Source: Octopus sinensis
Taxonomy: Eukaryota
DNA: 64,000 nucleotides
Reading direction: 5' to 3'
Assembly: GCF_006345805.1 (NCBI RefSeq)
Contig: NC_043000.1
Location: 142,786,001 to 142,850,000, forward strand
The notes below the pieces were generated by a model. That model did no database searches. It was not told the DNA's origin and worked only from the letters and a program-made list of their open reading frames with translations. Below are positions 1 through 46,250 of this stretch, one piece after another; position 1 is the first letter of the stretch; the number at the start of each line of letters is the position of its first letter. A program made the position numbers and the translations under genes.

Positions 1-559
1 TTGTGTTTATATATATATCTGTGTGTGTGTGTACATACATACATATATATATATATATGTATGTATATGTATATATACATGTATATATGTGAATGTGTGT
101 GTATGTATATGTATGTATACACTGCTTATTGTATACGTTGTACTTGTGGTTGCTTATAGGACTGAGATCAGGGTTCTTTAGTTCACTATCGTGCAACAGG
201 TAAATTGTTCATTTCGAATCATTTCAAAGCAAGATCAAAAACATTTAAATTTCTTCTTTGCGATATATTGTATGCTAACGATGGTGTTCGCATGTAAACT
301 GGAACAAGCGCTTCAATATCTTATGATCTACTTCTTCAGTACCCGTAAAACTGCCGCACTTACTAAAAGCATGAAAAGGTCAAAAATAAAGTATGCACCT
401 GTTCCAGAAGATACTAATGTAGAATGCAATATACTTGTCTGAAGGACTGGACTTGGTCTTATGGGTTGTTTTGTGTATCTTATCTTGGCAGTTATGTCTC
501 CATGAATGAATCCGCAGTCTTAGGGGGGAAAAATTGAAGATTGAGAAGGTTTCACTTAC

Positions 560-612
560 GTTTCGATATCGGGAACGGTAGCGCGGCGGAGCAACGGGCG
601 ACCGGCGCAGGC
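560..612 (-). CDS. Candidate 53-bp internal exon (GC-rich), frame unresolved: ACAGRPLLRRATVPDIE(T) or LRRSPVAPPRYRSRYRN
   Basis: Minus strand: pyrimidine tract, then ...GCGGCAG|GCCTGC...ATCGAAAC|GTAAGT (consensus donor). GC/CpG-rich island in an AT-rich background; all three frames open. Confidence 0.4.
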
Positions 613-744
613 CTGCCGCTTACGTTTTGGGATACGGAAAAAAGAGGACGGTAAGGCAGGAACATGAAACCGTTAAGTCAGCTTTACATCTATGTGGCTT
701 GTGTCTTCACATACCAACGATACATATTTGAGATAGGAAACTCG

Positions 745-1090
745 TTAGGACACTATCAGATTACGTGAGTGATTTCAAAAGATGTGTCTCTAAGATGTAT
801 ATTAAACAAAAGTTGGAAATCTTTTCCACCTAACACAGAAGTGTTGAAAAAATCAGGTTGTCTTAGTATGGAAGCTCACCAAAATAACTTATGTTTAGTC
901 ATGTCATCCTTTATGACGGTTCCAGGCTCCTGTAGATAACTCTTATGATATATTAGGAAGCAACCCCAGGATAAACCAATAGATTTTGTGTCATCAGAAA
1001 ACAAAAGCAACTATAAATTCTAGAAATCAGCACTACTCATTGAGAACCTCATTCAGTTAAGAGAAGCGAAAGACGATCTATTACGAAGAA
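745..1090 (+). mobile_element. Degenerate 3' end of RTE-clade LINE ORF
   Basis: Broken translation includes SWKSFPPNTEVLKKSGCLSMEA, resembling the RTE C-terminal W..V.N.EVL...G..S.E motif; stops and frameshifts present. Confidence 0.45.
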
Positions 1091-1236
1091 AAATAGCCTT
1101 CAGTTTCAGAAAATTGTAATTGCCCACCAATTAACGAAACATAATACTTAACTACTGCATTATACTATCGAAAGCCACACATGTCATCATGAAATATCAT
1201 AGATCAGGAGACTAACACAGTTAGCTTACATGCATT

Positions 1237-1468
1237 TAAGGCTCCGAGCTGGCAGAAACGTTAGCACGCCGGGCGAAATGCTTAGCGGTATTTCGTCTGC
1301 CGCTACGTTCTGAGTTCAAATTCCGCCGAAGTCGACATTGCCTTTCATCTTTTCGGGGTCGATTAAATAAGTACCAGTTACGCACTGGGGTCGCTATAAT
1401 CGACTTAATCCGTTTGTCTTTCCTTGTTTGTCCTCTCTGTGTTTAGCCCCTTGTGGGTAGTAAAGAAA
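1237..1468 (+). mobile_element. tRNA-derived SINE, family A (GGCGGCGAGCTGGCAGAA head; central GCCTTTCATCCTTTCGGGGTCGATAAA resembles the Nin/Deu domain)
   Basis: Pol III A/B-box-like motifs (TGGCAGAAACG; GAGTTCAAATTCC); 15-bp TSD TAGCTTACATGCATT at 1222-1236 and 1469-1483; many copies in this window. Confidence 0.9.
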
Positions 1469-1993
1469 TAGCTTACATGCATTCAGTTCCAACAATATTA
1501 GCAGAGTGCTTATATTGTTGTCCTTATATCCAAATGTGCTACTCGATTAAAGATCTGTTTTGAACGAATGTACAAATGCAGAGCTGCTGCTAGAGTGACT
1601 CTTGACAAGAGTGCATTACACGTGTAACAAAAACAATTCAAATGTAATCAAAGCTTGGTAGTCAACTGAGGACCCATGATTGAAATTCAGTCATTGCAGA
1701 CATATACCTGATGCAGAGATATATTGTCAGAGAAAGAGGAATACAGAGGAAAAGATAGAGATAAAGCAGTGTTGCAATATGTACAAGTGTGTTTGAGAGT
1801 ATATACGTCCGAATGCGAATATGTATGTGCTCGTATATATTTTATATAACTTTATTCGTTTGACTTACGAGACTCCAACCACGTTGGGGTTCCTTGAAGT
1901 GTTAATCGATCAAACTACATACATTACTCATGCTTTCCTGATACTTTTTCCCTCGGTTGCCAAGTGATGAGATATAAAAGTACAAAGATACAA

Positions 1994-2296
1994 GTTAGCA
2001 AGTTGGCAGAATCGTTAGGACATCGGACAATGTCATGCTGTTTTTCATCCGACTTTTAAGAAAAAAGGCGGCGAGTTGGCAGAACCGTTAGCACGCCGGG
2101 TGAAATACGTAACCGTATTTCGTCTGCCGTTACGTTCTGAGTTCAAATTCCGCCACGGTCGACTTTGCCTTTCATTCTTTCGGGGTCGATAAATAAAGTA
2201 CCAGTTATGATCTTGGGTCGATGTAATCAACTTAATCCGTTTGTCTGTCATTGTTTTTCCTCTCTATGTTTAGCCCCTTGTGGGCAATAAAGAAAC
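1994..2296 (+). mobile_element. SINE family A preceded by an extra diverged head, all inside one 24-bp TSD
   Basis: TSD AGATATAAAAGTACAAAGATACAA at 1970-1993 and 2297-2320; canonical SINE starts at ~2066. Confidence 0.85.
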
Positions 2297-2529
2297 AGAT
2301 ATAAAAGTACAAAGATACAAACTAGAAAACACATATAAATACATACACATCTACTACAAACTTCCACAAGTTTCTGTCAACCAAATACACTCACAAGATA
2401 TTGGCCAGAACGGGGTACAGTGTTATATATTTGTCCGAAGTGAGGAACAGTTGGACTGAACCCGAATCCACTTGGTTACAATGAGAACTTCTTAATTATA
2501 TAGAATTGTCCATATATATATATATAACA

Positions 2530-2820
2530 TGAACAACTCACCCGTCATTAGACGACATATGAGGGTCCGGCAATTTCTTGCTGAACAACCTCACAGATGA
2601 TTTGTTTATAGTGATTAAATGTTTGTATACACATAAGCTTATTCACCCCATCAAATCGACATTATCTGTACAGATGCAGTGTGTGACAAATGTCAGATGA
2701 CGAAATGATCGCAGAGCGACGTGCAATGAAGCACTTTGCTCAAAAACACAACGCAACGCTCGGTCTGGAAATCGAACCCACGATCACGCTATCGTGAGTG
2801 CAACACTCTAACCTCTAAGT
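2530..2820 (-). mobile_element. Old tRNA-derived SINE (head related to the copy at 57010-57268)
   Basis: Shares GAAG..TTTGCTCAA.AACACAACGC...GAAATCGAA with the 57-kb copy; distal end resembles the tail of the 22.2-kb SINE. Confidence 0.6.
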
Positions 2821-2837
2821 ATATATATAATATATAT

Positions 2838-2905
<68 letters not shown>

Positions 2906-3007
2906 GGAGTAAACACATAAATGTGAAACAAGGTGGAAAAAAGAGTACTCAAATACCAGTGGTAGAGTAATATGCTTTATTTTAAGCAGCAGAAAATTCA
3001 ACAAAAT

Positions 3008-3045
3008 CTGTTACTCTGAGTTTCTCGTTACCGTTCATCAGACAG
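3008..3045 (-). ncRNA. Minimal type-I hammerhead ribozyme motif (Penelope-type)
   Basis: Minus strand reads CTGT-CTGATGA-A CG GTAA CG A-GAAA-CTC A GAG-TA-ACAG: intact core, stem I CTGT/ACAG, GUA cleavage triplet. Confidence 0.7.
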
Positions 3046-5031
3046 TTTTTGCTAGAATGGAACATATATATTAATTCAATCTATACTCTTACAAACGCTA
3101 CACCTTTAAAAAGAAATGGACTTGTTTGATTGGCCCTTTAGAAAAAAACGGTCAATCTTCGAGCGATAAACAAAAAGGTCAAAAATATGTATATATATAT
3201 ATAAAAAAACTTATAAAAATTATAAAAATTATAAAATCCGAGGAAAAAACCGAGGAAAAAACCTATTGCCGTTAATGAAGACAGTACAAATAATGCATAG
3301 AATTAAACTGTTATAAATACTGCAATACATATTTATATTAAAATCCACATATATATATCAACATACACAAAAGGATGCGCGTAAACGCCATACATACATA
3401 TACAGACGTATGAATATGAATCTAAATTATACACATAAAAGCATGTGTACATATATTCACGCAAACCGTCTCGCACGCAAGCTAAAATTCATCTATGTAG
3501 CAATTCTCATATACTGAGCAAGGAGGGGGAACGAAAGAAAGGGAAAGAGAGAAAAAGGAACGAAAGAGGGGGGGGGGAAACTTGTAGCGATGTTATTGGC
3601 ATCTATAGAGGCCAGTATACATACACAAGTTTGAATTGATACATATACATACCGTCGTGTGTATGCGTGCTTAAGCACAAGCATACTTTCACTTACACAT
3701 ACACAGATACGCATGCTTACAAATACATATGCTTTGCTATACACAAACTTATATAAACATTCTAAATTTGACAACATTGCTTTTTTTAAAAAAACATTGC
3801 TTTTAAAAAATGGGTGCATTAATAAAAATATATACGAAAGACATAAAATAAAATATAACATCCTATTTTGGGTCATTTATAAATAATCAAGGTAATATAA
3901 ATAATCAAGGTAATCCTATGCAATACAATAACATGAAAACAGAGTTTGTAGGTTTTTCCTAATATATATGTAGAAACAATAAGACTTTGCTATAGATCCG
4001 TCGTAGCGCTTAAGAGTCAAAATCAAAATGAAAAATCAAAATACAAAATATTTTGTATTTTGATTTTTGATTTTGATTTTGACTCTTAAGCGCTACGACG
4101 GATCTATAGCAAAGTCTTATTGTTTCTACAAACTCTGTTTTCATGTTATTGTATTGCATAGGATTACCTTGATTATTTATATTACCTTGATTATTTATAA
4201 ATGACCCAAAATAGGATGTTATATTTTATTTTATATGTCTTTCGTATATATTTTTATTAATGCACCCATTTTTTAAAAGCAATGTTTTTTTAAAAAAAGC
4301 AATGTTGTCAAATTTAGAATGTTTATATAAGTTTGTGTATAGCAAAGCATATGTATTTGTAAGCATGCGTATCTGTGTATGTGTAAGTGAAAGTATGCTT
4401 GTGCTTAAGCACGCATACACACGACGGTATGTATATGTATCAATTCAAACTGTGTATGTATACTGGCCTCTATAGATGCCAATAACATCGCTACAAGTTT
4501 CCCCCCCCCCTCTTTCGTTCCTTTTTCTCTCTTTCCTTTCTTTCGTTCCCCCTCCTTGCTCAGTATATGAGAATTGCTACATAGATGAATTTTAGCTTGC
4601 GTGCGAGACGGTTTGCGTGAATATATGTACACATGCTTTTATGTGTATAATTTAGATTCATATTCATACGTCTGTATATGTATGTATGGCGTTTACGCGC
4701 ATCCTTTTGTGTATGTTGATATATATATGTGGATTTTAATATAAATATGTATTGCAGTATTTATAACAGTTTAATTTCTATGCATTAATTTGTACTGTCT
4801 TCATTAACGGCAATAGGTTTTTTCCTCGGTTTTTTCCTCGGATTTTATAATTTTATAATTTTTATAAGTTTTTTTATATATATATACATATATTTTTGAC
4901 CTTTTTGTTTATCGCTCGAAGATTGACCGTTTTTTTCTAAAGGGCCAATCAAACAAGTCCATTTCTTTTAAAGGTGTAGCGTTTGTAAGAGTATAGATTG
5001 AATTAATATATATGTTCCATTCTAGCAAAAA

Positions 5032-5069
5032 CTGTCTGATGAACGGCAACGAGAAACTCAGAGTAACAG
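5032..5069 (+). ncRNA. Minimal type-I hammerhead ribozyme motif (Penelope-type)
   Basis: CTGT-CTGATGA-A CG GCAA CG A-GAAA-CTC A GAG-TA-ACAG; predicted cut after 5065; AATAAA about 30 nt downstream. Confidence 0.7.
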
Positions 5070-5518
5070 ATTTTGTTGAATTTTCTGCTGCTTAAAATAA
5101 AGTATATATATATATATATATATGTTATATATTTATATTGTGAAATTAAATACTAAATTGAATTTTCACCTGTAAGTTTGGAGTTATACTCTCTAATATT
5201 ATATATGTGTGTGTGAGTGTGTGTGTAAGTGTGTGTGGATGTGTGGGGGTGTGCGTGTGCGTGTATCTCCAAGACACCCGATCAATGGTTGTGCCAGTTC
5301 AGTACCTTCGACTGTTAATGTCATATCGGACCTAAAAAAGAATTATATATATATATATATATCGTGAGAAAGAACAATAATATATATATATATGCATACT
5401 GATAAAAAGAGGGAGGAAATAATTTTTTGTACTGAAATTAAGAGCGGTTAAGGGTTATGATTAAAAGATCCATAGAATTCGGTGTGTGTGTTTTTTAATA
5501 CAAATGGTATATAAGTTA

Positions 5519-5559
<41 letters not shown>

Positions 5560-5887
5560 TCGTAGACATGCACCGATTCATTTTGCACTCTCTACCTAGG
5601 TGTGTTCTTTTCGACGTAAAACATCTCCTCTTAATTCTAAAGGGGCGTTATATCCGAAAAGTTATACTCCTTCCAGTCTTCTTTCAGCGCCAATATTATT
5701 AATGATATCGACTGAATAGCACATGTATCTTTGCTGATTTCTTTTCATTTCATTTTCGATATTTCGCATTAGTTGTACATATGTGTGTGTTTGTACGTGT
5801 GTGTGTGCGTGTCTGTGTGTGGCTGTGTATTTTTGGCTGTGTCTTTGTATGCGCATATGCATATTCATATATACATATATCTGCATA

Positions 5888-5928
<41 letters not shown>

Positions 5929-6442
5929 GAGAGATAGAGAGAGGGTTGAGAGACTCACACACACACACTAACACACACATATATATACATACATATGTAT
6001 ATATATTTATCTATATATACATATATGTTTACAATTGTCTATACAAACACACACAACAACACACACGTACACATGTATATATACGTATGTAAATCTAGGT
6101 ACATATCTATATATATATTACACATATATACACATATATTTACATACACACACGTACACACACGTACACATGCATATATACACATGTACGTCTAGATATA
6201 TATATGCATATAAATCGTAAAGTTTTTTTCTCTTTTTTATGCATAAAATCAATAACTAATTAAAAGAACTCACTACAATTGTAGCGACAGATATTTTCAA
6301 TATTTATATTGATAGTGACTTCAAATGTTTACCAGTAGTTGGTACTATCAGGCCACCTAGAAGGTTCCTGTCTCATGACCTCAATCAGAGGTGGAGGTGG
6401 ACAATTCAAAGTCATCATCATTAAAATGATTTAAAATATGCA

Positions 6443-6496
<54 letters not shown>

Positions 6497-6499
<3 letters not shown>

Positions 6500-6780
6500 T
6501 AATTGGTAGAAATACCCGGCGTTGCCCGGTTGAAGAAAATAAAGAAATTTTTAAACGCCGTCTAGATTACGCAGGTCTCAACTGCTAGTAGTTGAGATAC
6601 CAAATGTCTATGTAATTCTGCAACCCATGCAACCCATATATATATATTAATTAGTAGAAATACCCGGCGTTGCCAGGGTCGAAGAAAATAATGAAATTTT
6701 TAAACGCCGTCTAGATTACGCAGGTCTCAACTGCTAGTAGCTGAGATACCAAATTTCTATGTAACTCTGCAACCCATGCC
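6497..6780 (-). repeat. Tandem duplication (~135 bp x2) of a Helitron-like 3' terminus
   Basis: Units 6497-6630 and 6648-6780 both carry TACCCGGCGTTGCC(C/A)GG, like the Helitron hairpins at 34.85 and 49.92 kb, plus an internal TCTCAAC..GTTGAGA hairpin. Confidence 0.65.
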
Positions 6781-7470
6781 AACATGGAACATAGACGTTA
6801 AGTGAAACGTGGAAAGAAAGTTTTCAACTTATATATGTATAGAAAGTAAATACACGTTTGTGTAACTTATCTCGTAACCCAAAAAACAAGTACAGATTAT
6901 AAACAATGAAAGGCCGTGCGTCGGGTACACACACACACACACAAACAGACAGCGAATATATCACGTTACTCTTTCACTTCTATACACACAGATATACACT
7001 CACGCCTATCAGTCCAAAAATGAAAGTGTAATACTTTAATACTGCATAGTTATACACTTCTGTATCTGACATACTATGTTTAATATCTTGCCATGTTCCT
7101 CACTGAAAATATAAAGGTTCTTTTCATCTCCAACTCTAGAACATCCGACATACAACTAACCATGTGAGAAGCAAAGTTGAAGGCGATTACGTCCCACCAC
7201 CTTTAGAGATTGACCTTGTGCTTTGTTGATAGACATTGCAAAGCCAAGTTTGACAGAAAACTGCCGTCTCTCGAAGTGAAAGGTGAAATCATTTGAGATG
7301 AGAGATATCCTTGGAATGAAGACGTTATCCATATAGAATTAAGATATAAACTCAAATTAAGCATTCATACTCATACATTTATAATTTCCACTTAAAATGC
7401 GTATACATATACTGATACATATCGATACCTATGAATATTAAAAAAAATATTAATAAAATATACTTAATAC

Positions 7471-7640
7471 GTGCAGGAGTGGCTGTGTGGTAAGTAGCTT
7501 GCCAACCGACCACATGGTTCCGGGTTCAGTCCCACTGCGTGGCATCTTGGGCATGTGTCTTCTGCTATAGCCCCGGGCCGACCAATGCCTTGTGAGTGGA
7601 TTTGGTAGACGGAAACTGAAAGAAGCCTGTCGTATATATG

Positions 7641-7675
<35 letters not shown>

Positions 7676-7895
7676 TTGTGTGTGTGTGTGTTTGTCCCCA
7701 TAGCATTGCTTGACAACCGATGCTGGTGTGTTTACGTCCCCGTCACTTAGCGGTTCGGCAAAAGAGACTGATAGAATAAGTACTGGGCTTACAAAGAATA
7801 AGTCCCGGGGTCGATTTGCTCGACTAAAGGCGGTGCTCCAGCATGGCCGCAGTCAAATGACTGAAACAAGTAAAAGAGTAAAAGAGTAAAGAGTA
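7471..7895 (+). mobile_element. tRNA-derived SINE, family B (GCAGGAGTGGCTGTGTGGTAAG head, CORE-like CTTGGGCAAGTG, internal TA/TG microsatellite, (AAAGAGT)n tail)
   Basis: Near-identical copies at 19869, 32087, 45855, 49258 and 62500. Confidence 0.9.
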
Positions 7896-7916
7896 ACTAT
7901 ATAAATATACATAAAA

Positions 7917-7978
7917 TTCCGTTTGTCTGTCCTTGTTTGTCCCCTCTGTGTTTAGCTCCTTGTGGGTAGTAAAGAAAT
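7917..7978 (+). mobile_element. 5'-truncated SINE family A (3' end only)
   Basis: TCCGTTTGTCTGTCCTTG...AAAGAAATA flanked by a duplicated TATATAAATATACATAAAAT. Confidence 0.75.
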
Positions 7979-8857
7979 ATATATATAAATATACATAAAA
8001 TACATGTAAATAAAACCCATGTGGGATACGTATGGGAGGAAATGTGAGAAAAAGAGGACTGATAAAAAGAGGGACGAAATAATTTTTTTTTTACTGAAAT
8101 TAAGAGCGGTTAAGGGTTTGGATTAAAAGATCCATAGAATTCGGTGTGTGTGTTTTTTAAATATATATGGCATATAAGGTATATAATACAGTTCGAGGAG
8201 GTTCACTTTCAACGGCCGTTTCTATAGCTCAAGTCCTGGTAGAAAAATTAGTAAATTTTACAAACCATGTGGACAACGTCGCCTTCATCAGGAAAGGTAT
8301 CCTCATAAAATTACATTCTTGATACTTTTGATTCTGATTCTTACAGAATGATGGATATATATAAAAAAGAATTTCTTTTGTTCTCTTTACGTATACAAAT
8401 GGGTGGAGAGCATGGAATGGTGGGACAAGTACATTAACCTATTGGGCCTTAATTCTGACTAAATACATCACAATGAAATTTTCAATGTACTAAGAGCTAA
8501 AAGGTTTCACGTTGCAGGCGCGCTTCCAAATTATTCAATATGTTTGGTTTTATAACTTTTCAAGAAAGTGGAATGGAATTTACGACTACGTGAGGGAATC
8601 GCAACAGAGAATTTATTTAATGTATTTAAACTATATGATCTAAGGATAATGTACGATTCTTAATTCTTATCTTTTGTCTCGGGTTCGACCCGAGCACTTC
8701 TTTTTAATAGTTCTATATATTTCGTAAGAAAGAACAATAATATTATAGACACACGCACACAAAATTGTTATCTGCTAGTTAGAAGAACATAACCATTTAG
8801 TGACAGTTAAATGTCAGCTCTACATGTGCAACTGTTTTAAGTCCAGTGAAGCTTGTA

Positions 8858-8912
8858 CAATACCACGATGGCTCTCACAAACAATACCACGATGGCTCTC
8901 ACAAACAATACC
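8858..8912 (+). repeat. 24-bp tandem repeat ACAATACCACGATGGCTCTCACAA, ~2.3 copies
   Basis: Directly visible; lies within an LTR-like segment (~8760-9228, minus strand, starting TGTAGTG). Confidence 0.85.
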
Positions 8913-11091
8913 AAAATGCCCACAGACAAGTAAATTGCAAGATGTCCGAATCAGTAAAGCAGCAGGTTTTATATACGAGTTAGCCTTCTCATAGAGAGAT
9001 GCCTTAACAAAAGCCAGGGCTCCTTCACTCCCAGAGAGCTCACTGCTCCCTCGGACACCAACCTGAGTATTTCTACATCATCTTGTCACTTATATGCTAG
9101 TTAACCTATAACTGAGACCATGAGAGGTACTACTCCACCGGGTAAGTGTAGACCTGAGAATAATGGTTCCTAAAGGGCGATTCCACACTCTCCAAAACCC
9201 TGGAACTCCTGTACCAGAGCTGCACTACAGGATGTTGTCCAAAATTATACCCAAGACAATATGTAAATATATATATTCATTATTCTTAAACAAGAATATT
9301 ATCAATAGCGACTTAGAAGTTTCAACCAGTTTAGCCATCGTCGGCAGTCCGATGTCTTTTATCTATGTGTGTGCGTGTGTGTGTGTGAGTGTGTGTGTAA
9401 GTGTGTGTGAGTGTGTGCATGGGTGTGTGCGTGTGTATGTATCACCGAGGCATCCGATCAAACGTTGTGCCAGTTCGGCACCTTCGACTGTTATTGTCAT
9501 ATCGGACCTAAGAAAGGTGAAAATTAAATTTTGGGCAGGATTTGAACTGTTTTCACATATTCAAAACAAATCCCCGGTGCACCTTGTTCTACGCTCGAAT
9601 GACTCTGTTAATTCGCCTCTCAAATAGATCTTATACAACCTGATCGTGGCAAATATTTGGAGACATTCTTTTTTAATATTTTGGTAGAACGGAATATTTT
9701 GGCAAGCTGCGACGCTTACGTTATATGAAAACTTGAAACAACCAGCCGGTATCAAATTTTGCATGAGGCTTCACGGACTAGCTACTGACCAACAGATTAT
9801 ATGCTTTTAGTAAAGATTCTTTAGGTCAAGCACAAGATTTTAAATGGTACGTGTTTCAAATTTTGTGGAACTTTGATTCATGATGATGAGCATTCATTTC
9901 AATCAAACAATCGCCAGCAAAACCCCAGAAAATATAGAAAAAGGATTGTGAACTTATACATCATTGCTGTCACCGAACAATTCATCCGCTATAAAGTCTA
10001 CAAGATATTCCACATGGAGAAGTCAACCTGCATCGAGTTGATATGAATTTATACCTCTTCTGACACTCAATCAAACTTAGAGGTGTCTTGATATGTGTTC
10101 TGAGATTTTTGCCATGTTTCTCAAAGTGAAATGTCAAAGCGAAATGTCACAATTAAGGCAATTCTGCTCCGATACAGTAAATTAAAGTTATAACAAACTA
10201 CAGACATTGGAAGGCTGTTAACGAAAGCACTTGAGGCGCAGAAAATGAACCTGGATTGTTATATACTATTCACAGGGGGATTATTTATTAGAGGGCATCT
10301 TCCCATGTATACATAATATTTCAAACATTTCATTTCGTGGCGTACTAGTGTATTTCTTTCAAGCCTGGTCCAGCAAATTTCTGATACCATCTCATTGTTT
10401 GTATGTGTGAATGAGTATATGTGATCGTGGTTGTGTATGTCTGTATGTGTTAAGTCAGTATGACTGTTTCAGTGTGTGCATTTCGTGTTAGATTTACTCT
10501 TATTTCTAAAGACACTTACACTGATTGATATATTATGGATGCTCAAATGACTGTTTGTTGCTGTTGTTGTAATTGTTTTTCTCAAAGATAATTTTTACAA
10601 AGAAAACTTATTGAAAAAAAAACTACAAAAAAATATATACCTTTCTTTTCAGAATATCGATAAATTTCTGTTCTTTGACAGTTAGTTTGTAGATAATTGA
10701 TGCCTCATCTTTTTTATTGCATCATTTCACAAATATTTCAAATTGGTTTTGTATGTTTGCTTGTTTGTTTGTTGGTTTGCTTGATTGATTGACTTTTTAT
10801 CTCCAACAACATTCATTTTGTGACGTATTCTTTTTGACTTTACTATTTTTTTATTAACTGTCTTGTATATTGTGTTTTTGTTTAGATACATTTCTCAATA
10901 TATCTGGTTGTGTATCTATACATATGGATAATTATGTATTTCTATCCATATATATGTGTGTGTGTGCGGATGTGTGTGTGTGTGTGTGTTGAGACAGAGA
11001 CAGAGAGGAAGAGTGAGAAAGTGAGAGTGTGTGTGATACATAGATATACATATATATATATATATATATGTGTGTGTTTATATGTATATAC

Positions 11092-11132
<41 letters not shown>

Positions 11133-11309
11133 ATACATAGAGAGAGAGAGAGATGTTTATGTGTATACACAATACCTACATACATTTACACACATGTACG
11201 TATATATTTAAATGTGTGTGCATTAGTATGTATATGACTATTTATATATGCGGTTATGTGTGGTTCTGTGTATGAGAGAGAGAGTGTGTGTGAGAGAGAG
11301 AGAGCGAGA

Positions 11310-11725
11310 GAGAGACTGTGTGGTAAGAATTTGCTTCTTAGCTACATTGTTCAGCGTTCGGTCTCACTGCGTGGCATCTTGGACAAGTGTTTTCTATTAG
11401 AGGCACAAGTGGACCAAATCCTAATGACTGGATTCAGGAAACGGAAACTGAATGGGACCCATTGTTTGTGTGTGTGAGTGAGTGAGTGAGTTTGTGTGTG
11501 TATGTGTCTGTGAACGTACGCTTGCGTATATATATGTATCATTGTGATTGTGCTTCAAAACCGGTGTTGGTGTGTTTACGACCGGTTCGGCAAAATTGAT
11601 CTATAGAATAAATACCAGGATTTTAAGGAATAGATAAAAATGGGATCGATTCAGTCGACTAATGTAAGCGATGCTCCAGCATGACTGCAGTCTTATGAGT
11701 GAAATAAGTAAAACATGAAAGATAA
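11310..11725 (+). mobile_element. Old, diverged SINE family B
   Basis: TGTGTGGTAAGAATTTGC...CACTGCGTGGCATCTTGG...GCTCCAGCATGACTGCAGTC match the family B modules. Confidence 0.75.
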
Positions 11726-11743
11726 TATATGTATGTATATATA

Positions 11744-11779
<36 letters not shown>

Positions 11780-12200
11780 CGCTTATGTATATGTATATGT
11801 ATATATATATATTAATTATAATAAAGGGTTAACTGCAAACAAGTTGCTCAAAACCACATACCGAAAATATTAGAAACAGCAGCCAAATAGGTCACTATTT
11901 CTACTACTAGTAAAAAAGTCTCCACAAACAAACAGAATTTGTAACCCGTATATGGTAAAGAGAAAGAAGACAACGAAATCCCAGCCTATTGGATTAATTA
12001 TGGACGAATTCGTTTCTGGATTAGAATCGAAAGTTCATTTCCTTGTCAACATAATATTTCCTATAAATCTAGAAATGCTAGGAAAAAAACTCACCCATTA
12101 CACCAACTTGACCAGGCGACATCGAACGATTTAACGGTCCGCTAGCATCTCCACATTTATATAGACAGGCGAATTCGTATCTCCCTCCAAAGTGTATGTG

Positions 12201-16690: not shown

Positions 16691-17564
16691 CTAAGGACAT
16701 TATCATGCTTTTTTTTTTCGAGTGTGTGTGTATCAGCCTTCTTGCAATAAATTATGCAACAGGTAAAAGTGTAGTTCAGAATACAAAGAGTTCTGCACTG
16801 ATTGCAGATATTTTTTTATTCCAAACTTTAATATTTATTTGGTGTTGTCAAGTAATCAGCAATTTTGTATCCCTCTCCACATCACCAAATTTTTCTTCTC
16901 CGCTCATCTACCACGTTTCTCCCTTCGACCACGTTTCCTCTAACGCATACGCTTAACTACGCAACTCTTACCCTCAACCATGTCTTGTTATTCTTTATCG
17001 TATCTAATATTTCATAATATAAGGATGAAGTAGATTATTTTCCTACACGGTAAAACAAGAATTGTGTAATTCCGAATAATTTTCTTTTCATTTTGTTTCT
17101 TACTCACTTTTTGTTTACCTAATTTAGAATGAAAACAATAATCTGAATATACAACTTATAGGTAATATAATCAACTGTCTGTCTTTCAGTCTATACTGAT
17201 GAACACAATCATGTCGAAACATGTTTACCGACACAATTATAGAATAAAATATAAAATATATTTAGATTTAATTGTGTAAACATAAAGTTCTGAAATAATA
17301 TTTCTTTTGCTCTTGTTCCATTCTTTTAAACGAAAACAAAAATGGAACTGCCTAAAACGTTTCATATTCTACGAAAAAAACGATTTGTGCAAACCGTTGG
17401 TAATTCTCTCAGAACAGCCAACCAACATAAGAAATTTTTCTTTGATACCTAGAAGTGCGATTTTTGCCGACGCAGGCTACTACCACTCTCTCTGAGTTTT
17501 ACATTTATCTGTATGTATGTGCTTGTGTATATATGTGTGTATGCGTGTGAGTGAGAGAATATAT

Positions 17565-22724: not shown

Positions 22725-22865
22725 TATTATTTACATTATTTACATTCGACGGATATTTGTCCTCATCATGTTTGTTGTTTCGGCTGATATACCCACTAGC
22801 CTTCATCAGGTGTCTTGGGGAAATTCCGAATCTGGGTTCTCATTCCTAAGGTGTTTTTCGATATT
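22725..22865 (-). mobile_element. Penelope-like terminal fragment with damaged hammerhead
   Basis: Minus strand CAC-CTGATGA-A GGCT...AGCC-GAAAC, but the cleavage-site and stem I 3' strand are missing; embedded in (ATT)n. Confidence 0.55.
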
Positions 22866-24069: not shown

Positions 24070-24660
24070 GTGGTTTGATCTTCACTAGGAGGGTGTGTCT
24101 TTGGTACCAGCAATAAGATAATTCGTATTTCTTCTTGATAGGTAACACGGGTTGGTGGAAAATGTGTAGCTTTTCACGGAGGCACATCCGGTATTTTCGG
24201 GTATCGGAAAGTAGGGTAGGGCTCCTGCCGATTTTGGTATATTCCATGCCTGATGTTTTATTCCAGAGGTCACGGAGTCTCTGTAGGGGACGAGACAAAG
24301 AAGCGAAATTCTCTCTATCCCTGCATTTAGGTGAGTGATTATGCTATGATTTACCTTGATATCAATGGTTGCCATGCCCGTGTATTGCTTTGTGATGTAT
24401 TCAGATGGTGTAAGAGTAGCCCTATAGATTACAGCCCTTGGGGTGCAGAATCCACTTAAAGGGAAGCTAGTATGGTTTCGACAGTTACATCTTGTATTTG
24501 GAGGTTTTGAAGATGCATGTTTGCATCTGTTAGCATGCAGTATTGGAAGCGATCTTATTCAAGCAGAAGTAGTTCACATTGACGTTATGTAGGTCGAAGA
24601 GGTTACAGTGTTTGTGGCCCTAGGAGAATTTCTTCATTATGAACAACAGGGAGCTCCTAG
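24070..24660 (-). mobile_element. Penelope-like element GIY-YIG endonuclease remnant
   Basis: RCNCRNHTSFPLSGFC..AVIYRAT..YTGM, then RMCLREKLHIF..KKKYEL..RHTLLV, matching the PLE CxC..CPL.G.C / VIY / YIG / CLxEK layout. Confidence 0.8.
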
Positions 24661-44261: not shown

Positions 44262-45007
44262 CTGAAAGTACAGGAGGAAAAAAAAATGTTTCCTAGTAAA
44301 GGTGATCCTGGGGTATAACTTAACTCCCTTTCCTTTGGTCCAATGAGGATAACATTTCAAAAAGCCCACCAAAGATAAGACATCAGGGATCAAAGTAGCT
44401 CTCAGCAACAACACTGGAGTTGTGGTCTTTTCCTCTCTCCTATATCCAGCACACAAAAATTAAAGAAATATCAAAATATCAGAATACAAGCCAATCATAG
44501 ATTAATTATCCTCTAAAATGTGTGATAATAACAAAAAGATCTACATGATCACAGTTGATCCATAAAATAGCAATAATGCAATGAGAGGATAGACTGATAC
44601 CTTTTTACTGTATCTGAGAGAGAGTTTACATAAATAGCAATAGTAAAGAGAGCATATCACACATGGCCCAATGTTTCCACCTTTAATTGATTTGCTACTT
44701 ACTCACTTATTTATAAACCAATTACAGCAAATAATTATTAACATAGTAGCTATTAGCCGTTATTATATGCATGGTTCATGCTTTGAGAAGTTTAACAGTT
44801 AGATGTCCTTTGTATTATTACTACTTAAAACTAATCTACAGAGTGGATGAAGTATATTTTTATATATTTGTAACATATTTTACCATATTTGTACAGCAGA
44901 ATGCTTTTCTGCCACAAGCTACTCTGCAGTAGAGACCAAATGATTAAATCTTTTTAAAAAAATTTTTTTTAATGTTATATCAAATAACATCATAAATGAT
45001 GTTATAG

Positions 45008-45122
45008 GTGCAGGGTTCAGTCCCACTGTGTGGCATCTTGGGCAAGTGTCTTCTGCTACAGCCCCGGACCGACCAATGCCTTGTGAGTGGATTTGGTAGA
45101 CGAAACTGAAAGAAGCCTGTCG

Positions 45123-45200
<78 letters not shown>

Positions 45201-45421
45201 GTGTGTGTGTTTGTGTGTCTGTTTTGTCCCCCTCGCGTTGCTTGACAACCGATGCTAGTGTGTTTACGTCCCCATCACTTAGTGGTTCAGCAAAAGAGAC
45301 TGATAGAATAAGTACTGGGCTTACAAAGAATAAGTCCCGGGGTCAATTTGCTCGACTAAAGGCGGTGCTCCAGCATGGCTGCAGTCAAATGACTGAAACA
45401 AGTAAAAGAGTAAAGAGTAAA
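45008..45421 (+). mobile_element. SINE family B, 5'-truncated
   Basis: Match to family B from GGTTCAGTCCC onward. Confidence 0.9.
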
Positions 45422-45454
45422 TGAACATTTGATGCCCAGCTACCAATGAAAATA

Positions 45455-45706
45455 TTGTTTGTTCCTTCTCGAGCCACACCTGGTTCATAAGGGCTGGTTT
45501 CCCTGTTTCCTTGACATATAGGTTCCCCACCTGGATGGGACACCAGTCATCGCAGGTGAGCTGCAAGATGCAGGAGGAAAGGGTGAGAGAAAGTTGTGGT
45601 GAAAGTGTTCACTCATAAACACACACATTGCCCGGTCTGAGATTTGAACCCGTGATCCCTCAACTGCGAGTCCACTGCTCTAACCACTAGGCCATGTGCC
45701 TCCACA
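45455..45706 (-). mobile_element. SINE with C-like head and a third tail type, internally deleted
   Basis: Matches 54065-54368. Confidence 0.8.
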
Positions 45707-45854
45707 ATGAAAATATAGTTGTCATAATTATTAAACAAATAATGCATTTACTTCATGATAATCTCAGTTTCCTCAACTATGTTCTATAATATATTAGAAT
45801 TTACCCTATATGAAATTAACTGCTTTAGGACATGCAAAATTCACAGAGGAAGTA

Positions 45855-46250
45855 TACTCTTTTACTTGCTTCAGTCATTTGACTGCGGCCATGCTGGAGC
45901 ACCACCTTTAGTCGAGCAAATCAACCCTGGGACTTATTCTTTGTAAGCCCAGTACTTATTCTATTGGTCTCTTTTGCCGAACCGCTAAGTGAGTGGGACA
46001 TAAACACACTAGCATCGGTTGTCAAGCAATGCTAGGGGGACAAACACAGACACACAAACACACACATATATATATATATACATATATACGACAGGCTTCT
46101 TTCAGTTTCCGTCTACCAAATCCACTCACAAGGCATTGGTCGGCTCGGGGCTATAGCAGAAGACACTTGCCCAAGATACCACGCAGTGGGACTGAACCCG
46201 GAACCATGTGGTTGGTTAGCAAGCTACTTACCACACAGCCACTCCTGCGC
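45855..46250 (-). mobile_element. SINE family B
   Basis: Full-length reverse copy. Confidence 0.9.

What the first reader, a model, noticed from the sequence alone, without database searches (positions are those of the whole stretch)
2975..5102. 2.1-kb spacer-less palindrome with a hammerhead ribozyme motif near each tip
Seen: two ~1.05-kb arms meet with no spacer at 4049/4050. Read outward, each arm ends in CTGATGA..GAAA..GTA followed by AATAAA, so both strands encode nearly the same ribozyme-terminated RNA. There is no credible ORF, and both sides abut (TA)n, the left via 70 extra bp. Known: Penelope-like elements carry minimal hammerheads and often have inverted terminal repeats. Inference: a non-autonomous fold-back PLE/retrozyme-like unit formed by self-primed second-strand synthesis, able to give a ~1-kb dsRNA rod (ADAR/Dicer substrate) or a DNA cruciform. 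Caveat: most arm differences are 1-2-bp homopolymer indels, as in unpolished long reads. The 22-bp arm-specific indel and distinct flanks argue it is real.
Basis: partly seen in the sequence, partly recalled or inferred. Interest (0 to 1): 0.85.

Follow-up and report, generated by a model that had tools for sequence, protein, structure and literature searches.

The report
Back-to-back Penelope retrotransposon insertion
This 2.2-kb palindrome is one of many young copies of a Penelope-like retrotransposon, and its two back-to-back arms likely arose when one RNA was copied from both ends of a cut chromosome, a pattern that repeats among its sister copies and could help settle how these elements make inverted copies.

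Summary
The palindrome and hammerhead motifs are there. Each arm is the 3' UTR/pseudo-LTR of a young Hydra-clade Penelope-like element. G000 holds 2,641 exact copies of the ribozyme core and open RT–GIY-YIG frames. It is not a separate non-autonomous unit or retrozyme. Inverted pairs are a published Penelope feature; how they form is open. Sister copies follow strict rules. Of 100 consecutive short-ended copies, 64 have an inverted partner bearing the 71-nt tail and none has a short-ended partner. Paired arms share variants, their lengths are coupled (p=5e-16), and 5' ends pile up at a cliff 83 nt upstream of the short end. Best reading (0.62): twin priming, in which both cut DNA ends prime on one RNA at two fixed start sites and the cDNAs are then joined, often by microhomology. 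No read spans this locus, but its tail/short ends and different flanks make an artefact unlikely. The structure is known and the family new; the mechanistic evidence is useful.

The parts
2820..2903 (.). (TA)n target, left side
   Evidence: family ends abut (TA)n in 1,226 and 3,696 exact matches
2904..2974 (-). 71-nt 'tail': optional 3' extension. Its outer end is the second of two fixed ends (inferred RT start site). In tandem copies it runs on into the ORF.
   Evidence: tail concept from PMC8557442 and PMC11167929
2975..4049 (-). left arm: 5'-truncated 3' UTR/pLTR of the element, 3' end facing outward
   Evidence: 98.9% identical to a natural full copy
3002..3051 (-). hammerhead-type motif of the left arm, with one private change in loop 2 at 3030
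4048..4051 (.). junction: 4-bp self-complementary overlap, both arms truncated at the same family position (-1080)
4050..5102 (+). right arm: same 3' UTR/pLTR, ending at the short fixed end (first inferred RT start site)
4121..4130 (+). site of the private 22-bp deletion (counterpart of 3952-3973), 76 bp from the centre, between 5-bp direct repeats
5017..5023 (+). initiator-like word (consensus recalled). Base 5019 (-83) is where sister copies stop abruptly; inferred transcription start of the element RNA.
5026..5075 (+). type I hammerhead-type motif: stem I 5032-5035/5066-5069, core 5036-5042, 2-bp stem II with GNRA loop, GAAA 5053-5056, palindromic stem III 5057-5063, predicted cut after 5065
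5096..5101 (+). AATAAA just inside the short end; use as a poly(A) signal not tested
5103..5124 (.). (TA)n target, right side

Best explanation
The palindrome is a single young insertion of a Hydra-clade Penelope-like retrotransposon made of two 5'-truncated 3' ends joined back to back in a (TA)n tract, likely formed by twin priming: the element's protein would cut both DNA strands, each end would prime reverse transcription on the same RNA at one of two fixed sites 71 nt apart, and the two cDNAs would be joined where they can pair. Shown here: family identity, the two fixed ends, one end of each type per pair, shared variants and coupled lengths within pairs, a cliff of 5' ends at -83, and excess microhomology. 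Inferred: that the fixed ends are RT start sites and that both strands are cut and extended (shown in vitro only for a Poseidon-clade element, PMC11167929); that one RNA serves both primers, which needs strand displacement; and that -83 is the transcription start, so priming near the 5' end of the usual mRNA gives the common 150-240-bp mini-palindromes. The window copy would come from a read-through or tandem transcript on which both cDNAs stopped at the same place and annealed at a self-complementary word. The copy has no coding capacity. No host function is needed to explain it.
For: Identity (about 0.97). The arm search gave 1,257 candidates; the 40 scored gave 44 matches at 95-100%. Copies extend upstream into one ORF and tandem copies repeat every 3,359 bp. 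An open 766-aa frame exists with Hydra hallmarks. Its model (pLDDT 89) has telomerase RT as top structural match (3du5, E 4e-9). Mechanism. Of 100 consecutive short-ended copies: 64 have a tail-ended inverted partner, 0 a short-ended one, 2 a non-standard end, 34 none found. Of 30 tail-ended copies: 23 have a short partner, 0 a tail partner, 2 unclear, 5 none. In 49 pairs the arms share 100 minority substitutions in 12,346 bp, against 335 in 259,004 bp across pairs; discordance at recurrent variants is 1.6 vs 12.4 per kb. In the 64 pairs, 21 of 22 long short-arms have a long partner and 0 of 42 short ones do (p=5e-16). 44 of 100 short arms stop at -64..-83 and 2 at -84..-103. 8 of 36 direct joins overlap by 3 nt or more, against 4.5% expected (p=2e-4). 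Four of 56 pairs are disjoint, as in L1 twin priming (PMC2837659).
Against: No biochemistry exists for this family. In the published in vitro system RT start sites did not differ between strands, and priming was not homology-based (PMC11167929). One RNA versus two RNAs from the same locus cannot be separated by sequence alone. Two pairs (L022, L028) differ at recurrent variants outside the TA run, and 20 such discordant calls remain overall, 10 of them in an unreliable TA run. 12 of 36 direct joins are blunt, and 20 of 56 junctions score as inserts, some only because exact extension stopped at private variants. 34 of 100 short-ended copies have no detected partner. Fold-back also predicts shared variants and coupled lengths, and later central deletions could blur the geometry. 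The 56 junctions are not a random sample. The -83 start has no RNA evidence. No read or contig spans this locus.
Confidence: 0.62

Rival explanations
1. Self-primed fold-back (the first reader's idea; Arkhipova et al. 2013 proposed self-priming on an antisense template): one strand snaps back and is copied, the tail is then trimmed from one side at integration, and central deletions follow.
For: It explains shared variants, coupled lengths and near-symmetric junctions: 10 of 100 short-ended copies are exact zero-spacer palindromes, read by eye. It is in print for Penelope (PMC3846280, passages). 22 of 56 junctions are geometrically compatible (with L065 corrected).
Against: 4 of 56 pairs share no sequence, 19 have the tail-less arm reaching further 5', and 11 leave under 3 nt of loop. 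L050 and L053 were binned as compatible but are symmetric. Solo short-ended copies running from -83/-82 to 0 with (TA)n on both sides exist (L173, L204, L205), which suggests the short end is a priming site in its own right. One-sided losses of about 1.9 kb would be needed (L075).
Confidence: 0.17
2. Dual priming: a protein dimer brings two RNAs from the same source locus, and each cut end primes on its own RNA.
For: It needs no strand displacement. The idea is in print for L1 (PMC2837659, passages). A few pairs differ at recurrent variants (L022, L028).
Against: It does not by itself explain 64 tail/short pairs against 0 short/short, nor why long arms pair with long arms when most templates appear to end at -83.
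Confidence: 0.14
3. This locus is a long-read fold-back or assembly artefact.
For: Most arm differences are 1-2-bp indels that depart from the family majority. No independent record spans the centre or the flanks, and the 22-bp deletion is not among the listed rows.
Against: The flanks differ, and the two ends are the family's two different fixed ends, which a mirrored read cannot produce. The arms carry private substitutions and a private deletion. Four contigs of run X15 show the family's commonest zero-spacer junction at 5022, so such junctions exist outside this assembly.
Confidence: 0.04
4. A non-autonomous retrozyme-like unit, or a host-selected dsRNA gene, that spreads or works as a palindrome.
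For: It has two hammerhead motifs, no ORF and a perfect rod fold. Animal retrozymes are related to pLTRs (10.64898/2026.07.22.740005, passages).
Against: No second copy with this junction was seen among the 56 junctions classified or the long copies. Long sister pairs break at different places. The ribozymes are on opposite strands, so a rod transcript would pair them up and block the dimer fold. The arms differ by only two substitutions, too young to show selection.
Confidence: 0.03

Closest known systems
Hydra clade of Penelope-like elements (Craig et al. 2021, PMC8557442), e.g. Hydra-2_aMil, Penelope-13_HM, Hydra-1_Obim
   Same: Single ORF with RWK and DKT motifs, C-terminal GIY-YIG without CCHH, CxCX5C linker, CxxC and CxH motifs, (TA)n targets and a hammerhead near the 3' end. 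Stem I, stem III arms and cleavage base match those listed for Hydra-2_aMil. Penelope-13_HM is listed with a 966-nt inverted 5'-truncated copy.
   Different: The unit is 3.36 kb with a 1.08-kb 3' UTR (published members are generally under 3 kb). The tail is 71 nt rather than 30-40. Stem II has 2 bp with an A-A apposition at its base. The hammerhead differs from that listed for Hydra-1_Obim, so it is likely a different family. Copies number in the thousands and are very young.
Poseidon PAc of Anolis (Frangieh et al. 2024, PMC11167929)
   Same: Two fixed ends bounding a tail, AT-rich targets and a hammerhead in the pLTR. In vitro that protein cuts and extends both strands from two start sites and is predicted to dimerise.
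   Different: Different clade. The paper does not treat inverted insertions (the word 'inverted' occurs once, for a reagent). Its hammerhead overlaps the start codon, whereas here it lies about 170-210 nt upstream of the first Met.
L1 twin priming (as described in PMC2837659; Ostertag and Kazazian 2001 seen only as a reference entry)
   Same: Both nicked strands prime on one RNA, the 3' ends face outward, and the inner junction often has microhomology.
   Different: In L1 the second site is variable and the two pieces are disjoint with an internal deletion. Here both sites are fixed, the arms mostly overlap to give palindromes, and this is the commonest outcome.
Adineta vaga Penelope families (Arkhipova et al. 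2013, PMC3846280)
   Same: Head-to-head inverted pLTRs with palindromes at the junction, and a tail on one of the inverted pLTRs.
   Different: Few copies there, explained by self-priming. The statistics here favour two primers.
Non-LTR retrozymes of animals
   Same: Type I hammerhead with a palindromic stem III, non-coding, related to pLTRs.
   Different: Retrozymes occur as solo or tandem direct units. This is an inverted pair of truncated ends of an autonomous element.

Membership tests
EN+ Penelope-like element | single ORF with telomerase-related RT | tested here: met
   In sister copies, not in the window: 766-aa open frame, YRDDG invariant in 18 of 18 aligned proteins, top fold match TERT. 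Pfam gave no hit for the query itself; RVT_1 hit 3 of 18 members.
EN+ Penelope-like element | GIY-YIG endonuclease in the same ORF | tested here: met
   GVVY...YTG core with conserved R, H, E, N. Pfam GIY-YIG hit 2 of 18 members but not the query.
EN+ Penelope-like element | partial tandems forming pLTRs, inverted 5'-truncated copy, optional tail | tested here: met
Hydra clade | RWK motif and DKT in place of DKG | tested here: met
Hydra clade | no CCHH inside GIY-YIG; CxCX5C linker; CxxC and CxH around E and N | tested here: met
   The linker is complete in L027, but the second Cys is Phe in L032 and L023.
Hydra clade | (TA)n insertion and hammerhead near the 3' end | tested here: met
Hydra clade | phylogenetic placement with named Hydra proteins | not tested
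Hammerhead ribozyme (type I, dimer-type) | conserved core, stems I-III, NUH triplet, palindromic stem III | tested here: met
   Stem III self-dimer -9.4 kcal/mol; monomer fold only -1.3 against an MFE of -7.6.
Hammerhead ribozyme (type I, dimer-type) | G10.1-C11.1 pair closing stem II | tested here: not met
   A-A at 5043/5052 in the young subfamily, A-U or A-G in older copies; feature from PMC4209133. No Rfam hammerhead match.
Hammerhead ribozyme (type I, dimer-type) | self-cleavage | not testable with these tools
   needs an in vitro assay
Non-LTR retrozyme | non-autonomous unit repeated as such, solo or in direct tandem | tested here: not met
   The arms continue into an RT ORF in sister copies, break at variable places and pair in inverted orientation.

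The most novel reading that the evidence does not exclude
Programmed twin priming is the default integration route of this, and perhaps all, endonuclease-bearing Penelope elements: two RT active sites start at two fixed points near the 5' end of one mRNA, one per DNA strand. That single step would explain the tail, the head-to-head palindromes and the mass of short hammerhead-only copies. It would also have seeded this genome with roughly 800 or more young inverted repeats (64% of 1,226, extrapolated), a ready source of dsRNA for editing and small-RNA pathways.
Probability: 0.35. Interest if true: 0.75.

Novelty: new member of a known kind. Interest (0 to 1): 0.5.

Why it matters
The locus itself is one of thousands of related ends, and inverted Penelope copies are in print. 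What matters is the population behind it. How Penelope-like elements make tandem and inverted structures is named as undefined in PMC8557442, and self-priming is the explanation proposed in PMC3846280. This young, high-copy family gives hundreds of near-fresh products with strict rules (one tail per pair, shared variants, coupled lengths, a sharp 5' edge). These tie the two RT start sites seen in vitro to the inverted structure and give clear predictions for an existing assay. It also offers open reading frames for the first biochemistry of a Hydra-clade protein. In practice, such palindromes in this genome should not be dismissed as read fold-backs.

Tried and rejected
Rfam at E<=5 over 1-12000 gave only generic hairpin (miRNA) matches and no hammerhead. 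Free folding of the motif did not give the hammerhead fold. Pfam found nothing for three ORF fragments or for the full protein, and the PDB sequence search reached only E 0.32. Single-sequence AlphaFold failed (pLDDT 33); the 18-row alignment worked. Laying 4 of 24 listed runs on 3985-5400 was no test of this locus: the 24 listed contig pieces were 66-124 nt, repeats at the right flank were skipped, and run X23 laid no reads. No RNA run holds the stretch among those listed, so expression and editing were not examined. A genome-wide count of the commonest symmetric junction is not available. Subfamily origin of the 22-bp deletion was tested and rejected: it is private. A target-site duplication cannot be read because both flanks are (TA)n. 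An intron end at the cliff was considered (an acceptor-like AG precedes stem I, as reported for D. virilis in PMC4209133) and set aside, because copies stop at -83, not -76, and are preceded by (TA)n or the partner arm. Three look-ups of earlier scan findings returned nothing. Paper searches found no paper applying twin priming to Penelope inversions. Arkhipova 2006, Evgen'ev and Arkhipova 2005 and the Pyatkov papers were not read, nor the supplements of PMC11167929 and PMC3846280; they may bear on this.

Full report
Observation. The left arm 2975-4049 and right arm 4050-5102 are reverse complements with no spacer. They differ by two substitutions, seven 1-2-bp indels, one TA-unit shift and a 22-bp deletion in the right arm. 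Against 40 sister arms, each small indel departs from the majority in one arm or the other, as consensus errors would. The two substitutions are private to the left arm, and the deletion is unique in G000 against 363 undeleted matches. Both arms end in a hammerhead-type motif and AATAAA. The left arm carries 71 more bases (2904-2974), and both sides abut (TA)n. No long frame overlaps the region.

What it is. The arm is a repeat: 1,257 candidates, of which 40 were scored, giving 44 matches at 95-100%. The 32-nt ribozyme core occurs exactly 2,641 times. In most of the 18 other loci read, the sequence continues upstream into the end of an ORF whose stop codon lies 7 nt before the arm start. A natural tandem gives a 3,359-bp unit. 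A protein search listed 85 scored matches, many without stops, and one frame is open for 766 aa (708 from the first Met). It has 1,128 relatives at E<=1e-30. An 18-row alignment conserves RWK, DKT, YRDDG, a CxCX5C-type linker, a cysteine-free GIY-YIG core, CxxC and CxH. These are the features that Craig et al. give for the Hydra clade (PMC8557442, section 11 read). The model (pLDDT 89) matches telomerase RT best. The motif shares stem I, the stem III arms and the cleavage base with Hydra-2_aMil in that paper's supplement, and differs from Hydra-1_Obim (supplement part 2 read).

The ribozyme. Core, stems and cut triplet are in place. Stem III is palindromic and self-dimerises at -9.4 kcal/mol, while the monomer fold is worth only -1.3. 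This fits the dimer-type motifs of Cervera and De la Pena (PMC4209133, part 1 of 4 and passages). Stem II has two pairs and lacks the G10.1-C11.1 pair; older copies have A-U or A-G there. Rfam does not detect it. Activity is untested, and in a fold-back transcript the two motifs would pair with each other. In PAc, ribozyme mutants did not impair insertion in vitro (PMC11167929, parts 1-2 of 4 read).

The family rule. Copies end at two fixed places, the short end (window 5102; 1,226 exact matches followed by TA) and the tail end (window 2904; 3,696). Among the first 100 core matches listed, I counted 25 outward-facing pairs within 5 kb and 1 inward-facing pair. I examined all 100 listed short ends: 64 have an inverted partner with the tail, 0 have a short-ended partner, 2 a non-standard end and 34 none found. 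Of the first 30 tail ends, 23 have a short partner, 0 a tail partner, 2 are unclear and 5 have none (two are a duplicated pair). Within 49 pairs the arms share minority substitutions at 8.1 per kb against 1.3 across pairs, and disagree at recurrent variants at 1.6 against 12.4 per kb. L022 and L028 are exceptions. Lengths are coupled: 21 of 22 short arms reaching beyond -90 have such a partner, 0 of 42 others do (p=5e-16; one long arm has an internal deletion). 5' ends pile up to -83 and then stop: 44 at -64..-83 against 2 at -84..-103. Tail arms show the same edge, and some solo copies run exactly from -83 to 0. Base -83 (window 5019) sits in an initiator-like word (consensus recalled), and the D. 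virilis Penelope promoter lies in the pLTR (PMC2377424, passages). I infer an RNA 5' end there.

Junctions. In 56 junctions, a non-random set, all pairs are one tail plus one short end (L065 corrected). Four are disjoint, 19 have the tail-less arm reaching further 5', 11 leave under 3 nt of loop, and 22 are compatible with a fold-back. Of 36 direct joins, 8 overlap by 3 nt or more (4.5% expected, p=2e-4) and 12 are blunt (53% expected). Twenty score as inserts, some through private variants. Ten of the 100 consecutive copies are exact zero-spacer palindromes, seven at the self-complementary 4-mer equivalent to window 5022-5025 (read by eye). Run X15 shows that junction in four contigs. The window copy is the only kilobase-scale exactly symmetric case among those I examined. 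Its centre is a self-complementary word of the family sequence.

Mechanism. Published work shows that a Poseidon protein cuts and extends both strands and starts at two sites bounding the tail (PMC11167929), but it does not treat inverted copies. Arkhipova et al. explained head-to-head palindromes by self-priming (PMC3846280, passages), and Craig et al. call the cycle undefined and the tail likely a product of endonuclease resolution (passages). Twin priming on one RNA, known for L1 (PMC2837659, passages), accounts for all the rules at once: two sites on one RNA give one end of each kind, one template gives shared variants and coupled lengths, run-off at the RNA 5' end gives the cliff and the symmetry, and early stops of the tail primer give disjoint arms. 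Fold-back explains sharing and coupling, but needs trimming plus later deletions for 34 of 56 junctions. Two RNAs from one locus remain possible. I give 0.62, 0.17 and 0.14. Dimerisation of this protein could not be tested.

Is this locus real? No record spans it. A mirrored read cannot give two different family ends, different flanks and private differences, so I put artefact at 0.04.

Verdict. The structure is a known kind; Penelope-13_HM is even listed with a 966-nt inverted copy. The family appears new and is very young. My searches found no paper linking twin priming to Penelope inversions, but older key papers were not read. Also seen as passages only: PMC13282606, 10.64898/2026.07.22.740005, 10.1101/2024.12.14.628481; PMC3649969 gave a reference entry only. 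Interest 0.5: an ordinary locus, but the family makes an open mechanistic question directly testable.

Noticed in passing
window 22730-22850 (-): A second, older hammerhead-bearing repeat family (1,954 candidates; best 39 other matches 87-93%), often next to (AAT)n runs. 11 of 25 loci showed some inverted self-match within about 260 bp, several clearly outward-facing pairs. Probably another Penelope-like family; ORF not sought.
   Followed up: partly
window 17185-17240 (+): A third hammerhead-like core with a palindromic stem III and a decayed stem I.
   Followed up: no
window 24370-24501 (-): Weak tblastn match (43% over 47 aa, E 1e-4) to the linker and start of the endonuclease of this family's protein: a relic of a related element.
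   Followed up: no
window 45007-46205: Diverged inverted repeat, about 400-bp arms at 80% with a 442-bp spacer.
   Followed up: no
window 6488-6779: Two tandem 149-bp units, each starting in (TA)n: another element that sits in TA tracts.
   Followed up: no
L130:994-1521 (G000:C1 about 13,870,300-13,870,900): A whole mini-palindrome insertion duplicated in tandem with its TA tract.
   Followed up: no
L064, L225, L226, L229: Complex long insertions with a third short piece or an internal deletion at the junction, suggesting template jumps during cDNA synthesis.
   Followed up: partly
L027 with L005, L028 with L012, L241 with L243: L005/L027 and L012/L028 are the same places fetched twice. L241 and L243 are near-identical copies on an unplaced contig and a chromosome, a sign of haplotype duplication in the assembly that may inflate counts slightly.
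   Followed up: no
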